Below, piece by piece: positions 31,871 through 34,070 of a stretch of 64,000 nt of DNA. How positions within the stretch are numbered: position 1 is the stretch's first letter; the number at the start of each line of letters is the position of its first letter. A program made the position numbers and the translations under genes. The DNA comes from Dehalococcoidia bacterium (GTDB taxonomy: Bacteria; Chloroflexota; Dehalococcoidia; Lucifugimonadales; JAGWBF01): positions 2,476,256-2,540,255 of the forward strand of contig OZ244780.1 of NCBI GenBank assembly GCA_965219565.1, given 5' to 3'. The notes under the pieces were generated by a model. The model did no database searches. It saw only the letters and a list, made by a program, of their open reading frames with translations, and was not told the origin of the DNA.

Positions 31871-32077
31871 CAGGGCGGGGGTGCGTTGCTCCCTCTGCTT
31901 TCTAGGGTAGGGTCGTCAGTAAAGTACTTTCTACTGAACCTGTGGGCACCACTATGCGAGATCGAGGCATCCCCGTTACACGGTGGTCGATGTCCGAACC
32001 ATGCTTTATTTTCTTGGGCTGAGCCCGGTCGTTAGGTGACCACACCATTCCCTGTCTGAACTCCATTCCCACCGGGA

Positions 32078-32914
32078 CTAGCCATCGGAAACGTCCAAAT
32101 ACATTCTTCGCTGTCCAGACCTCAACCTGCCAATTGACTTCTCCCAGAAATCAAGACCCCTAGGGTGCTTCGAAGCGAAAAGAAGGTAGAACATTGGGAC
32201 TCCGGTTGAGTTCCGTATGGCCATTGGATCACCAAATTGAGTGTAATCCAATTTTTTTCTAAGGCTATCTCGAAACGTATCGATTAACACTGTGGTAGAG
32301 GGATTAGAGACATCGCCTTGTGATTCCCAGTAGCGGGTCCGCCAATTCTTGTCGTTAAGGAATGTGTCAACCGCCGCGATTAGACGATGCGCGTTCCTTT
32401 TGATTGCCGTTGTATGAAATGTGACTATAAGGTCAGTCGCCGGTCTTTGTCCCAAATGGGAGAGGCCGTCGAATGTTAGCTCATAATTCCACGGATCGAT
32501 TAATGCAAGAGTCAGAGCACCTTTCGGAATCTGCTCAGCGATCTCCTTCGCTGCTCGATTGCAGTCCAGGTTGAAGTATTCGACATTGGCCTGTGGATCA
32601 AGCTGCTGCTGTCGTCTAGTGAGTGCGTTCACAAAGTCTTTGTCTATGTCGTTGAAATACAAGTGGGTGAACGGCGTCTGGCATTTGAGGGCTACAATCG
32701 GAGACCCGTCAAACTCGGTTCCTGTTCCCCTTTCTTTGCATAGGCCTGGCCCAGCGAAGAGGTCGACATATGCCCGAGTTTGCCAACGGTTTTTCATACC
32801 CCCATTGAACAAGGAGCTAAAGTACCTGACGAAGTGAAGTTTGTCTTCGCTCCAAGGCCCTTGTATCAAGGTTGGCAGGCCGTCACTTCCGGGTTCAGTT
32901 CCTTGGCCGGGCAC
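32078..32914 (-). CDS. three-Cys-motif partner protein (TcmP-like), putative methyltransferase fold
   Basis: 278 aa. W..DKLHFVRYF then YVDLFAGPGL (SAM motif-I-like). Overlaps the upstream DUF5131 gene by 20 nt. Local GC is far below the window average (one 60-nt line is 35% GC). Confidence 0.7.
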   Translation of the reverse strand: MPGQGTEPGSDGLPTLIQGPWSEDKLHFVRYFSSLFNGGMKNRWQTRAYVDLFAGPGLCKERGTGTEFDGSPIVALKCQTPFTHLYFNDIDKDFVNALTRRQQQLDPQANVEYFNLDCNRAAKEIAEQIPKGALTLALIDPWNYELTFDGLSHLGQRPATDLIVTFHTTAIKRNAHRLIAAVDTFLNDKNWRTRYWESQGDVSNPSTTVLIDTFRDSLRKKLDYTQFGDPMAIRNSTGVPMFYLLFASKHPRGLDFWEKSIGRLRSGQRRMYLDVSDG

Positions 32915-33662
32915 CAGCGACTTCCTTTACCGACAAGGTTTGATCGGGCATGTCATCCCAGTGACGCCCATCGAGTTCCCGGCCCCCAGACTTGCTGGTC
33001 CTGCCACCCCATTGCTTGAAGAAGAAGGGTACGCCTACTTCCGCACAATCGTCTCTGATGCGTATAGCCCATTCCTCACTCATCGGTCTTGCTCTGTGCC
33101 CACTCTCGCCTCCAACGATCACCCATTGGAGGTTGGTTAGGTACGGAGTCAGATCCACAGCTTTCAACAGAGGCTCAACTGATATGAATCGCACTTTGGC
33201 AGGAATCTGCTGAAGTATAGGTATACGTCGGTCTGCCCAATACTGACTCTCGACCGAGGTCCCAGCCCAAACGTGATCTGGCCAGTTCAGGCGTTGCGTT
33301 TCCCATTCGACGAACTCCAGCATTCGTTCTGGCCGCTTCGTCAGCACCTGATATACATGGGCGTCATAAGTCTCCATCTTGTGGAACACCTCGCGTATGT
33401 ATTCGAACGGAACCTCTTCGTGGAAGAGGTCACTCATGCTGTTGACGAATACACGCCGCGGTGTACGCCAATTGCCGGGGACCTCCAGTCTCTCTGGGTG
33501 GAGGCGCACGGTGGTTTTCCCTGGAAGAAAGGGACCGCCACGTTTGAATCTAAGGGTGATGGCCTCCGCGTAGCAGTGGGCACATCCAGGGCTGACCTTA
33601 GTACAGCCTGTCACAGGATTCCAGGTGGCGTCAGTCCATTCGATGGCACTGTTGTCCGACAA
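32895..33662 (-). CDS. DUF5131 / phage Gp37-Gp68 family protein (three-Cys motif)
   Basis: 255 aa. N-terminal [26 protein letters not shown] is the family signature as I remember it. TTG start. Confidence 0.8.
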   Translation of the reverse strand: [255 protein letters not shown]

Positions 33663-34070
33663 AGGTTAGCTTTCCACTCCTCTAGTGTCACCATTAGAAC
33701 AAAATAGAACACAATCGTTCGAGCAAAGTCAAGGCGTAGTCAGAGCCTGAACGGTGTACTATAGGACGAGCGGGTTCATCTGGCCTTCGGAGAAGCGGCT
33801 TATCTTCTGTAGTGAAAAAGGGATTTAACCATTCTCGTCGCGAGTGCTGAAAATGAAGAGCCCGATATTTGACGGCTTCGTCAGCCGCAGTCATTGCTGT
33901 TGTGAGCGTGAAGGACCGCGAGCCCTCACGCCCTCTAGAACGCTTGCTTCCCCACTACGACCGAACTATCACTGGGGATTACAGGCAAGCAAGTACGACT
34001 GTTATCTCGCCACATCATTAGTGAGGGCTATGGGCCACGTTGCTTGCCGAAAACTGCGTCGTTGAGGCGC

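What the first reader, a model, noticed from the sequence alone, without database searches (positions are those of the whole stretch)
31873..34070. AT-rich islet carrying an overlapping TcmP-like / DUF5131 (Gp37-Gp68, three-Cys) gene pair of unknown function
- Between the thiolase-cupin locus and the rhodanese gene the composition drops sharply. For example, line 32221-32280 is 35% GC against about 60% for the window.
- The islet encodes two minus-strand genes that overlap by 20 nt.
  - One is a DUF5131 protein whose N-terminus [26 protein letters not shown] carries a three-Cys cluster reminiscent of a radical-SAM-like Fe-S site.
  - The other is a partner with YVDLFAGPGL, a motif-I-like SAM/DNA-methyltransferase signature.
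- As far as I know this pairing is catalogued (Gp37/Gp68 family plus its three-Cys-motif partner protein) but has no assigned function.
- Its phage ancestry, foreign composition and methyltransferase-like partner make a DNA-modification or anti-phage role worth testing.
- A weak 66-codon ORF (33694..33894) lies just upstream. It has no RBS, and I do not call it.
Basis: partly seen in the sequence, partly recalled or inferred. Interest (0 to 1): 0.7.

Follow-up and report, generated by a model that had tools for sequence, protein, structure and literature searches.

The report
Mobile radical-SAM / methyltransferase-like gene pair
A 1.65-kb foreign gene cassette in a Dehalococcoidia-like genome encodes a widespread, catalogued but uncharacterised pair, a DUF5131 iron-sulfur (radical-SAM-like) enzyme and its methyltransferase-fold partner TcmP, and most likely modifies DNA in conflicts between mobile elements and their hosts.

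Summary
- Two intact minus-strand genes overlap by 20 nt. One is DUF5131 (32895..33662; PF07505, 315 bits). The other is TcmP (32078..32914; TIGR04474, 157.6 bits).
- They lie in the most compositionally deviant stretch of the window (52.4% GC against 59.5%; tetranucleotide z = 4.8).

The pair is not new. PADLOC lists it as the untested candidate defence systems PDC-M41/M30. I found no functional study.

What I add:
- The mobile unit is about 1.65 kb (32109..33749) and carries its own conserved promoter-like block.
- The pair is adjacent in 60 of 81 loci from many phyla, with no conserved third gene. It is GC-poorer than its flanks in 50 of 52 loci.
- TcmP has a class I SAM-methyltransferase fold, closest to the rRNA m6A methyltransferase RlmJ.
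- Where DUF5131 is absent, TcmP pairs with, or is fused to, a radical-SAM enzyme related to spore photoproduct lyase.
- In temperate Gordonia phages the pair sits between integrase and repressor. It also rides conjugative plasmids and a transposon.

Best reading (confidence about 0.5): a self-contained two-enzyme nucleic-acid, probably DNA, modification module of mobile elements. The chemistry, the target and any anti-phage effect are untested. This is a solid lead but an ordinary member of a known candidate family.

The parts
32895..33662 (-). DUF5131 (Gp37/Gp68 family) gene, 255 aa, TTG start. Putative radical-SAM-like [4Fe-4S] enzyme with invariant C20, C27 and C30 (CX6CX2C), NSMSD, TKR and GGESG motifs.
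   Evidence: - PF07505: E = 4e-94, 315 bits.
- phrog_2045: E = 2e-102.
- PADLOC PDC-M41B: E = 2e-96.
- TIGR04471 'radical SAM mobile pair protein A': E = 1.3e-17, below its equivalog cut-off.
- Invariant residues are listed.
- The model has pLDDT 76.6, with an alternating beta/alpha core.
32078..32914 (-). TcmP (three-Cys-motif partner protein) gene, 278 aa, GTG start. Class I SAM-methyltransferase fold.
   Evidence: - TIGR04474: 157.6 bits against a cut-off of 53.
- PADLOC PDC-M41A: E = 4e-16.
- No Pfam family.
- The AlphaFold model has pLDDT 89.4.
- Foldseek top PDB hits are RlmJ (E = 1e-7, TM about 0.5), DUF519 and Trm1.
- Conserved motifs: DLFAGPG, DCN and (I/V)DP, with invariant D140 and D161.
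32895..32914 (-). 20-nt overlap between the DUF5131 stop and the TcmP start. I infer co-transcription and translational coupling.
   Evidence: The same 20-nt overlap is present in L002, L084/L085 and L086.
33693..33733 (-). Conserved promoter-like block upstream of DUF5131. It reads CTTGAC (N16) TGTTCTATTTTGTTCTAAT, with a tandem TGTTCTA repeat.
   Evidence: - The 19-nt TGTTCTATTTTGTTCTAAT is identical in the window, L001 and L003, and partly kept in L002 and L004. Sequence further upstream is unrelated.
- Function is inferred, not shown.
32109..33749 (-). Extent of the unit shared at DNA level with other genomes: promoter block plus DUF5131 plus TcmP. This is the mobile module.
   Evidence: blastn of loci against the window gives these spans:
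- L002: 32109-33661
- L003: 32135-33746
- L006: 32622-33749
- L001: homology ends at 33741
31875..34070 (.).
   Evidence: GC is 52.4% against 59.5 +/- 1.9%, the lowest window. The tetranucleotide z-score is 4.8, the highest.
33694..33894 (-). 66-codon ORF. Judged not to be a gene of the module.
   Evidence: - No family hit in Pfam, NCBIfam, PADLOC or PHROGs.
- It straddles the homology edge at 33741 and overlaps the promoter block.
- It is not conserved in L001-L004 or L084.

Best explanation
The islet is a horizontally acquired, self-contained two-gene cassette of about 1.65 kb with its own promoter. It encodes a two-enzyme nucleic-acid modification module.

TcmP is a SAM-binding, RlmJ-like methyltransferase-fold protein. 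I infer that it selects the target nucleotide, most likely a base in DNA, and possibly methylates it. It is also the fast-evolving, specificity-bearing partner.

DUF5131 is a three-Cys [4Fe-4S] enzyme of the spore-photoproduct-lyase branch of the radical-SAM superfamily. I infer that it performs conserved radical chemistry on the same nucleotide.

The two genes are co-transcribed and translationally coupled. I infer that the proteins act as a complex.

The module travels on phages, plasmids and transposons, and as naked cassettes. I infer that it marks or protects the DNA of its carrier in conflicts between mobile elements and hosts, as an anti-restriction or self-marking device, or as one arm of a defence.

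Shown:
- family membership of both genes
- the TcmP fold
- synteny, fusions and mobility
- foreign composition

Inferred:
- radical-SAM activity
- DNA as the substrate
- formation of a complex
- the biological role
For: 1. Family membership is above curated cut-offs for both genes, and both PADLOC components hit.
2. Linkage is tight. DUF5131 is adjacent to TcmP in 60 of 81 loci from Chloroflexota, Planctomycetota, Acidobacteriota, Omnitrophota, Bathyarchaeia and others. In 59 of these the two genes share a strand, in either order. The identities of the two proteins to the window pair co-vary (r = 0.94, n = 61).
3. No third gene is conserved among 133 flanking proteins or in five annotated contexts.
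4. TcmP has a methyltransferase fold (pLDDT 89.4). Its best PDB matches are nucleic-acid amino-methyltransferases: RlmJ at E = 1e-7, and Trm1. It keeps motif I (FxGxG), an acidic beta2 end, DCN and an invariant D-P.
5. Where DUF5131 is missing, the TcmP neighbour is a canonical CX3CX2C radical-SAM enzyme homologous to spore photoproduct lyase (TIGR04070, E = 1e-23 to 1e-26). In L012 (606 aa) and P0249 (634 aa) TcmP is fused to it.
6. DUF5131 is homologous to 'radical SAM mobile pair protein A' (E = 1e-17). RadicalSAM.org places it in Megacluster-5, alongside spore photoproduct lyase (PMC9477430). Enzymes of this branch act on DNA: spore photoproduct lyase repairs it, and phage M6 gp53 installs a thymidine hypermodification (PMC8989533).
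7. Context in mobile elements:
   - In Gordonia phages Fairfaxidum and BaxterFox the pair lies between integrase and immunity repressor.
   - In phage Bakery, DUF5131 abuts a Dcm-type DNA methyltransferase.
   - 30 of 80 viral DUF5131 loci have an adjacent TcmP.
   - 11 of 15 plasmid hits are on conjugative plasmids, and one lies inside a TniB/TniQ transposon.
8. Composition is foreign here and in 50 of 52 loci, by 8.1 GC points on average. DNA homology between genomes is limited to the cassette.
Against: - No biochemical or genetic data exist for either family.
- The Cys motif is CX6CX2C, not canonical.
- The DUF5131 model gives no significant PDB fold match. The best is spore photoproduct lyase at TM 0.43 and E = 0.047.
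- hhalign of DUF5131 against the spore-photoproduct-lyase-like partners gives only 12% probability.
- TcmP lacks a canonical (D/N/S)PP(Y/F/W) motif IV. Its closest structural relatives methylate RNA, not DNA.
- Most viral DUF5131 genes (50 of 80) have no TcmP, so DUF5131 can work without it.
- Flanking genes are mostly housekeeping, so association with defence islands is weak in this sample.
- Nothing in the cassette looks like a nuclease or another effector.
Confidence: 0.5

Rival explanations
1. The pair is a complete anti-phage defence system (PADLOC PDC-M41). For example, it could work like a restriction-modification system: DUF5131 damages unmarked DNA by radical chemistry, and TcmP marks self DNA or senses infection.
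For: - Both PADLOC PDC-M41 components hit.
- These candidates were defined from instances embedded in BREX, DISARM or type I RM loci.
- The layout is compact and overlapping, is mobile, and has low GC, as in type II RM systems.
- In Gordonia phages the pair sits between integrase and repressor. From my own knowledge, not from a call here, prophage-expressed defence genes of actinobacteriophages are often encoded in that position.
- In S. meliloti pSymA, TcmP lies next to the Hna defence gene and is co-regulated with it. A DUF5131 gene lies 1.4 kb away.
- Some neighbours are defence-like: TIR, BrxH, DpdJ, SngC and mad3.
Against: - All 145 candidates of this class are explicitly untested.
- No nuclease or other effector domain is present.
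- The conservation pattern is the opposite of restriction-modification systems. The proposed 'killer' DUF5131 is the conserved partner (median 51% identity), and TcmP is the divergent one (33%).
- Many phages carry DUF5131 alone, among early or replication genes. That is hard to reconcile with a DNA-damaging enzyme.
- Most neighbours here and elsewhere are metabolic genes.
Confidence: 0.2
2. The pair is a DNA-repair module carried by mobile elements. DUF5131 reverses a DNA lesion by radical chemistry, as spore photoproduct lyase does. TcmP recognises or flips the lesion.
For: - The alternative and fused TcmP partners are homologues of spore photoproduct lyase.
- The best, though weak, fold match of DUF5131 is spore photoproduct lyase.
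- The related radical-SAM gene Rv2578c appears in a paper on the M. tuberculosis LexA regulon (PMC3381160). I did not open that paper to see what it says about the gene.
- In phages, DUF5131 sits among recombination and replication genes such as RusA, exonuclease and RuvC.
Against: - TcmP keeps a full set of SAM-binding and catalytic-type methyltransferase motifs. A pure lesion reader would not need them.
- Systematic low GC, patchy distribution and embedding in restriction or BREX loci fit conflict systems better than repair.
- The hits to spore-photoproduct-lyase models are far below their equivalog cut-offs.
Confidence: 0.12
3. The pair is an RNA (rRNA or tRNA) modification module. TcmP acts like RlmJ on RNA, and DUF5131 acts like the radical-SAM RNA modifiers RlmN/Cfr, MiaB and TYW1. 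The effect would be altered translation, for example resistance or phage takeover.
For: - The closest structures to TcmP are RNA methyltransferases: RlmJ, Trm1 and METTL6.
- Two of 36 TcmP sequences give weak RlmJ hits in Pfam (E about 0.045).
- MiaB appears among the weak fold hits of DUF5131.
Against: - No hit approaches the RlmJ family threshold.
- The radical-SAM partners belong to the DNA-acting spore-photoproduct-lyase branch.
- In phage Bakery, DUF5131 abuts a C5-cytosine DNA methyltransferase.
- The pair's embedding in DNA-directed defence loci points to DNA.
Confidence: 0.13

Closest known systems
PADLOC phage defence candidates PDC-M41 and PDC-M30 (TcmP + DUF5131), from Payne et al., bioRxiv 10.1101/2024.01.29.577857
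   Same: Both component HMMs hit: M41B at E = 2e-96 and M41A at E = 4e-16. The two genes are adjacent on the same strand. The short (about 280 aa) TcmP matches the M41A profile lengths.
   Different: Nothing differs structurally. This is a member. The candidate itself has never been tested, so the name carries no function. The window copy is not embedded in a known defence system.
NCBIfam TIGR04474 TcmP with its 'three-Cys-motif' partner PF07505 (Gp37/Gp68)
   Same: Scores are above the curated cut-offs, and the three Cys are invariant in the partner.
   Different: These are only annotation families, and neither has an assigned function.
Spore photoproduct lyase, and the phage M6 gp53 radical-SAM isomerase that resembles it
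   Same: - These are radical-SAM enzymes that act on DNA bases.
- They share a RadicalSAM.org megacluster with DUF5131.
- Spore-photoproduct-lyase-like enzymes replace DUF5131 next to TcmP, or are fused to TcmP.
- The motifs CxxCY, xxD-L and TK(R/S) align in register.
   Different: - DUF5131 is shorter (255 aa) and has CX6CX2C.
- It does not hit the spore-photoproduct-lyase HMMs.
- The fold match is not significant.
- Neither spore photoproduct lyase nor gp53 needs a methyltransferase-fold partner.
RlmJ (23S rRNA m6A2030 methyltransferase; Pfam PF04378/DUF519)
   Same: It is the best structural match to the TcmP model, with E = 1e-7 and TM about 0.5. It shares a Rossmann methyltransferase core preceded by an N-terminal helix that carries invariant residues.
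   Different: - There is no significant sequence similarity.
- TcmP has D-P-x-x-aromatic in place of DPPY.
- RlmJ works alone and is a housekeeping gene.
NCBIfam 'radical SAM mobile pair' proteins A and B (TIGR04471 and TIGR04470)
   Same: - DUF5131 is homologous to protein A (E = 1e-17).
- The spore-photoproduct-lyase-like TcmP partners weakly resemble protein B (E = 5e-5 to 1.5e-4).
- Both systems are named as mobile two-gene units.
   Different: - Scores are far below the equivalog cut-offs.
- That system pairs two radical-SAM proteins and has no TcmP.
- It is also uncharacterised.
Type II restriction-modification systems
   Same: A compact, overlapping, mobile, GC-poor two-gene cassette that includes a methyltransferase-fold protein.
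   Different: No endonuclease fold is present. The non-methyltransferase partner is the more conserved one.

Membership tests
Pfam PF07505 DUF5131 (Gp37/Gp68) | HMM score above the gathering threshold over the full profile | tested here: met
   315.1 bits against 28.9. Residues 4-239 match profile positions 1-243 of 243.
Pfam PF07505 DUF5131 (Gp37/Gp68) | N-terminal three-Cys cluster conserved | tested here: met
   C20, C27 and C30 are invariant in 34 sequences.
NCBIfam TIGR04474 TcmP | HMM score above the curated cut-off | tested here: met
   157.6 bits against 53. Residues 20-259 match profile positions 1-257 of 263.
NCBIfam TIGR04474 TcmP | Encoded next to a three-Cys-motif protein | tested here: met
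   The gene overlaps DUF5131 by 20 nt. The same adjacency is seen in 60 of 81 related loci.
PADLOC PDC-M41 | Both components (A and B) present and adjacent | tested here: met
   PDC-M41B at E = 2.1e-96 and PDC-M41A at E = 4.3e-16.
PADLOC PDC-M41 | Confers anti-phage protection | not testable with these tools
   The source paper lists these candidates as untested.
Radical SAM superfamily | CX3CX2C cluster motif | tested here: not met
   The motif is C20-X6-C27-X2-C30. Non-canonical spacings are known in some members, from my own knowledge.
Radical SAM superfamily | Sequence homology to recognised radical-SAM families | tested here: inconclusive
   - TIGR04471: E = 1.3e-17, but 64 bits against a cut-off of 355.
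- hhalign against the spore-photoproduct-lyase-like partners: probability 12%, E = 0.0024.
- DUF5131 is listed as a subgroup by RadicalSAM.org.
Radical SAM superfamily | Partial (beta/alpha)6 TIM-barrel fold | tested here: inconclusive
   The model has an alternating beta/alpha core. No PDB match reaches E < 1e-3. Spore photoproduct lyase gives TM 0.43 and probability 0.93.
Radical SAM superfamily | [4Fe-4S] cluster and reductive cleavage of SAM | not testable with these tools
   This needs anaerobic biochemistry.
Class I SAM-dependent methyltransferases | Rossmann-like methyltransferase fold with glycine-rich motif I | tested here: met
   222 PDB matches at E <= 1e-3; the 50 listed are nearly all methyltransferases. 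DLFAGPG is present, with F53, G55 and G57 invariant.
Amino-methyltransferases of nucleic acids (N6-A, N4-C, m2G) | Motif IV (D/N/S)PP(Y/F/W) | tested here: not met
   The sequence is IDPWNYE. D140 is invariant and P141 nearly so. The second Pro is absent, and the aromatic residue is shifted and variable.
RlmJ family (PF04378) | HMM hit above threshold | tested here: not met
   The window protein gives no hit. Two of 36 relatives hit at E about 0.045.
Spore photoproduct lyase (TIGR04070) | HMM hit for the window DUF5131 | tested here: not met
   It is not among the NCBIfam hits. Only the alternative TcmP partners hit it, below cut-off.
Type II restriction-modification | Endonuclease partner | tested here: not met
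   No nuclease family appears in Pfam, NCBIfam or PADLOC for either protein.

The most novel reading that the evidence does not exclude
TcmP and its radical-SAM partner (DUF5131 or a spore-photoproduct-lyase-like enzyme) together install a DNA base modification that has not been described. One route would be radical elaboration of a methyl group placed by TcmP. Mobile elements would use it as a self-mark. A bolder version is that DUF5131 is a radical-SAM 'restriction' enzyme. Either would be a new class of epigenetic or immune chemistry, and it would be spread over thousands of protein clusters.
Probability: 0.25. Interest if true: 0.8.

Novelty: new member of a known kind. Interest (0 to 1): 0.45.

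Why it matters
The TcmP family is large: 7992 clusters at 50% identity reach E <= 1e-3. DUF5131 returned at least 8000 hits. The pair occurs in bacteria, archaea, phages and plasmids, and nobody has shown what it does.

The data here give concrete targets for experiments:
- fusions of TcmP to spore-photoproduct-lyase-like radical-SAM enzymes
- placement between integrase and repressor in cultivable Gordonia phages
- linkage to a Dcm-type methyltransferase in phage Bakery
- carriage on plasmids

If the module makes a new DNA mark, that would add a radical-SAM branch to DNA epigenetics and to phage-host conflict. It could also supply new base-modifying enzymes.

The window copy itself is one ordinary, apparently intact instance in an uncultured Dehalococcoidia-like genome.

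Tried and rejected
- **PDB sequence searches:** single sequences and profiles of both proteins found nothing meaningful.
- **Foldseek, DUF5131 model against the PDB:** only generic TIM barrels, with spore photoproduct lyase at non-significant E.
- **Foldseek, TcmP against BFVD:** only generic methyltransferases.
- **hhalign, DUF5131 against spore-photoproduct-lyase-like partners:** motifs align in register, but the probability is 12%.
- **A conserved third gene or effector:** none was found among 133 flanking proteins or among 75 phage neighbours.
- **Integration signatures:** there is no tRNA in the window, and no repeats bracket the pair. The only strong direct repeat brackets the cupin gene instead.
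- **Non-coding RNA:** Rfam gave no hit in 31000-35000.
- **The 66-codon ORF as a third component:** rejected, because it has no family hits, is not conserved, and crosses the homology edge.
- **The GAAC-N6-GTTC element near the promoter as a LexA box:** rejected, because it is not conserved in L001 or L003 and has the wrong spacing.
- **Literature:** eight searches found no functional study of DUF5131, TcmP, PDC-M41/M30 or the 'radical SAM mobile pair'. The library holds only open-access papers and bioRxiv, so a subscription-only paper could have been missed.
- **A flawed ORF caller:** my first greedy ORF caller under-called DUF5131. I replaced it with HMM-seeded calling.
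Full report
**1. Observation**

The window carries two minus-strand ORFs. The first runs 32895..33662 (255 aa, TTG start) and begins [32 protein letters not shown]. 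The second runs 32078..32914 (278 aa, GTG start) and contains YVDLFAGPGL. They overlap by 20 nt.

Composition is clearly deviant:
- The interval 31875-34070 is 52.4% GC. The window is 59.5% GC, with sd 1.9% for equal-sized windows.
- It is the lowest-GC window of its size and the most deviant in tetranucleotide use (z = 4.8).
- GC3 is 0.54 for TcmP and 0.605 for DUF5131, against 0.75-0.83 in the neighbouring genes.
- The quoted 60-nt line is 35% GC.

'AT-rich' is therefore relative only. The cupin gene (GC3 0.61) shares the deviation.

**2. Identity**

The upstream gene is a full-length DUF5131 (Gp37/Gp68) protein:
- PF07505, 315 bits against a threshold of 28.9
- phrog_2045

The downstream gene is TcmP. 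It scores 157.6 bits on TIGR04474 against a cut-off of 53 and has no Pfam family.

PADLOC recognises both as PDC-M41B/M30B (E = 2e-96) and PDC-M41A/M30A (E = 4e-16). These are 'phage defence candidates'. They were defined because at least one instance is embedded in a BREX, DISARM or type I RM locus, and all 145 are explicitly untested (bioRxiv 10.1101/2024.01.29.577857).

Eight literature searches found no functional work on DUF5131, TcmP or the PADLOC candidates. The only classification found is DUF5131 as a subgroup of the radical-SAM superfamily. RadicalSAM.org places it in Megacluster-5-2, next to spore photoproduct lyase in 5-3 (PMC9477430).

**3. Anatomy of the proteins**

DUF5131 is very conserved. 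The top 120 of at least 8000 hits are all at least 67% identical. Among 34 sequences the invariant features are C20, C27 and C30 (CX6CX2C), [13 protein letters not shown], GGESG and C206.

Evidence that it is a radical-SAM enzyme is suggestive, not conclusive:
- It is homologous to NCBIfam 'radical SAM mobile pair protein A' (E = 1.3e-17, below the equivalog cut-off).
- Its AlphaFold model (pLDDT 76.6) has an alternating beta/alpha core.
- That model has no significant PDB neighbour. The best TM-score is to spore photoproduct lyase 4fhg (0.43, E = 0.047).

TcmP diverges fast, down to about 30% identity. Its model is confident (pLDDT 89.4) and has a class I SAM-methyltransferase fold.
- The best PDB matches are E. 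coli RlmJ (23S rRNA m6A2030; E = 1e-7, TM about 0.5), a DUF519 protein and Trm1.
- Conserved motifs are DLFAGPG (motif I), an acidic residue after beta2, DCN, and (I/V)DP with invariant D140. Invariant W21 and K25 lie in the N-terminal helix.
- It has no canonical DPPY and no significant sequence hit to RlmJ.
- Neither family has a solved structure detectable by sequence.

**4. Linkage and partners**

A genome scan found 80 TcmP loci. The nearest are Dehalococcoidia MAGs (75% identity), so the window is probably from that class. More distant loci come from Anaerolineae, Planctomycetota, Acidobacteriota, Omnitrophota, Patescibacteria and Bathyarchaeia.

With HMM-seeded gene calling on 81 loci:
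- 60 have DUF5131 directly adjacent to TcmP.
- In 59 of these the genes share a strand: 31 as DUF5131 then TcmP, and 28 as TcmP then DUF5131.
- 9 more lie at contig edges.

The remaining loci carry a different partner: a canonical CX3CX2C radical-SAM protein of 300-350 aa, homologous to spore photoproduct lyase (TIGR04070, E = 1e-23 to 1e-26, below the equivalog cut-off). In L012 (606 aa) and P0249 (634 aa), TcmP is fused to this enzyme. Fusion is strong evidence that TcmP and its Fe-S partner work together.

The identities of the two proteins to the window pair co-vary (r = 0.94, n = 61). hhalign of DUF5131 against the spore-photoproduct-lyase-like partners aligns CxxCY, xxD-L and TK(R/S) in register, but the probability is only 12%.

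**5. The unit and its mobility**

DNA-level homology between the window and other genomes is confined to 32109..33749. This span includes a conserved block just upstream of DUF5131: CTTGAC-N16-TGTTCTATTTTGTTCTAAT at 33693-33733. The block is identical in L001 and L003, while the sequence further upstream is unrelated.

The closest contig, L001 (95.7% nt identity), shares the thiolase-cupin side but diverges at 33741. That point lies inside the 66-codon ORF, so the ORF is not part of the unit.

No third gene is conserved in the annotated contexts of close homologues. Neighbours there include metabolic genes, a phage capsid region, MazE/PIN, Uma2 and PIN/FitA. None is conserved among 133 flanking proteins from 34 loci either. 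Those are mostly housekeeping, with a few defence-like hits such as TIR, DpdJ, BrxH, SngC and mad3.

The pair is GC-poorer than its flanks in 50 of 52 loci, by 8.1 points on average.

The pair also occurs on mobile elements:
- DUF5131 is in 181 phage records.
- 30 of 80 IMG/VR DUF5131 loci have an adjacent TcmP.
- In the temperate Gordonia phages Fairfaxidum and BaxterFox, the pair lies between integrase and immunity repressor. Fairfaxidum gp43, annotated 'methyltransferase', and BaxterFox gp42 are TcmP by TIGR04474.
- In phage Bakery, DUF5131 abuts a Dcm-type C5 DNA methyltransferase.
- Eleven of 15 plasmid hits are on conjugative plasmids. A B. pseudomallei plasmid carries two TcmP genes and one Gp37/Gp68 gene beside TniB/TniQ transposon genes.
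- On S. meliloti pSymA, TcmP lies beside the Hna defence gene, with DUF5131 1.4 kb away.

**6. Mechanism**

The best-supported reading (confidence about 0.5) is a self-contained two-enzyme nucleic-acid modification module.
- TcmP is the divergent methyltransferase-fold subunit. I infer that it binds SAM, selects the target nucleotide and may methylate it.
- DUF5131 is the conserved Fe-S subunit of the spore-photoproduct-lyase branch. I infer that it performs radical chemistry on the same nucleotide.

DNA is favoured as the substrate for three reasons:
- The characterised enzymes of this radical-SAM branch that I found, spore photoproduct lyase and phage M6 gp53, both act on DNA (PMC8989533).
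- DUF5131 is linked to a DNA methyltransferase in phage Bakery.
- The PADLOC candidates were found inside DNA-directed defence loci.

I infer that the biological role is self-marking or protection of mobile DNA, or one arm of a defence.

Rivals:
- a complete defence system with radical 'restriction' (0.2)
- DNA repair (0.12)
- RNA modification (0.13)

None is excluded. The evidence for and against each is given in its own section.

**7. Novelty and verdict**

The pair is already catalogued (TIGR04474, PF07505, PADLOC PDC-M41/M30), so this is a new member of a known but functionally blank kind. The instance in the window is intact but otherwise ordinary.

Its value is as an entry point to a very large family. 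TcmP alone has 7992 50%-identity clusters at E <= 1e-3. The fusion, phage and plasmid data assembled here point to tractable systems for testing.

Noticed in passing
window 31241-31305 and 31810-31874: A 65-nt direct repeat (94% identical) duplicates the 3' end of the thiolase gene on both sides of the cupin gene (31395..31790). The second copy has lost the stop codon. This looks like an insertion of the cupin cassette into the thiolase 3' end, or a recombination scar. The cupin gene also has foreign-looking GC3 (0.61).
   Followed up: partly
window 33741 / L001 position 429: The closest related contig (95.7% nt identity over 10 kb) loses all similarity to the window exactly at the upstream edge of the DUF5131 promoter block. 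L001 has a different gene there instead of the rhodanese side. This is a synteny breakpoint at the cassette edge.
   Followed up: partly
window 33693-33733 (minus strand): A conserved CTTGAC-N16-TGTTCTATTTTGTTCTAAT block travels with the cassette in several Dehalococcoidia genomes. It contains a tandem TGTTCTA repeat one helical turn apart. It may be a promoter plus operator, but no regulator gene is in the cassette.
   Followed up: partly
L012 9977-11797; protein P0249: Single polypeptides of 606 and 634 aa fuse TcmP to a radical-SAM domain related to spore photoproduct lyase.
   Followed up: partly
NCBIfam hits of window 32895-33662 and of L011 10847-11806 / L012: DUF5131 resembles 'radical SAM mobile pair protein A'. 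The spore-photoproduct-lyase-like TcmP partners weakly resemble 'mobile pair protein B'. If the named A/B pair is real, then TcmP, DUF5131-like and spore-photoproduct-lyase-like proteins form mobile pairs in all three combinations.
   Followed up: no
L089 (Gordonia phage BaxterFox NC_031226) 4001-4729, plus strand: A full-length DUF5131 gene (52% identical to the window protein) is not annotated. The record instead annotates hypothetical genes 40 and 41 on the opposite strand, which is probably a mis-annotation.
   Followed up: partly
L083 / L003 9253-10017: On the 1.76-Mb Dehalococcoidia chromosome OY763089, the gene caller did not call DUF5131, although tblastn finds it full-length at 83% identity upstream of TcmP. 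TcmP is called there with a longer N-terminus.
   Followed up: no
L187 (B. pseudomallei plasmid NZ_CP009155) 4610-7792: Two TcmP genes (423 aa and 274 aa, divergent) flank a single Gp37/Gp68 gene. They are surrounded by TniB/TniQ/Mu-transposase and IS66 genes.
   Followed up: no
TcmP family, all loci: TcmP comes in two length classes, about 270-300 aa and about 370-400 aa with a C-terminal extension. These classes match the PADLOC M41A and M30A profile lengths. Three non-TcmP neighbours of DUF5131 in viral contigs carry a GMT-like wHTH domain.
   Followed up: no
flanks of TcmP/DUF5131 pairs in L002-L063: One flanking protein matches PADLOC DpdJ at E = 0. Others match BrxH, SngC, mad3 and TIR-domain effectors. 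I did not record which loci these are.
   Followed up: no
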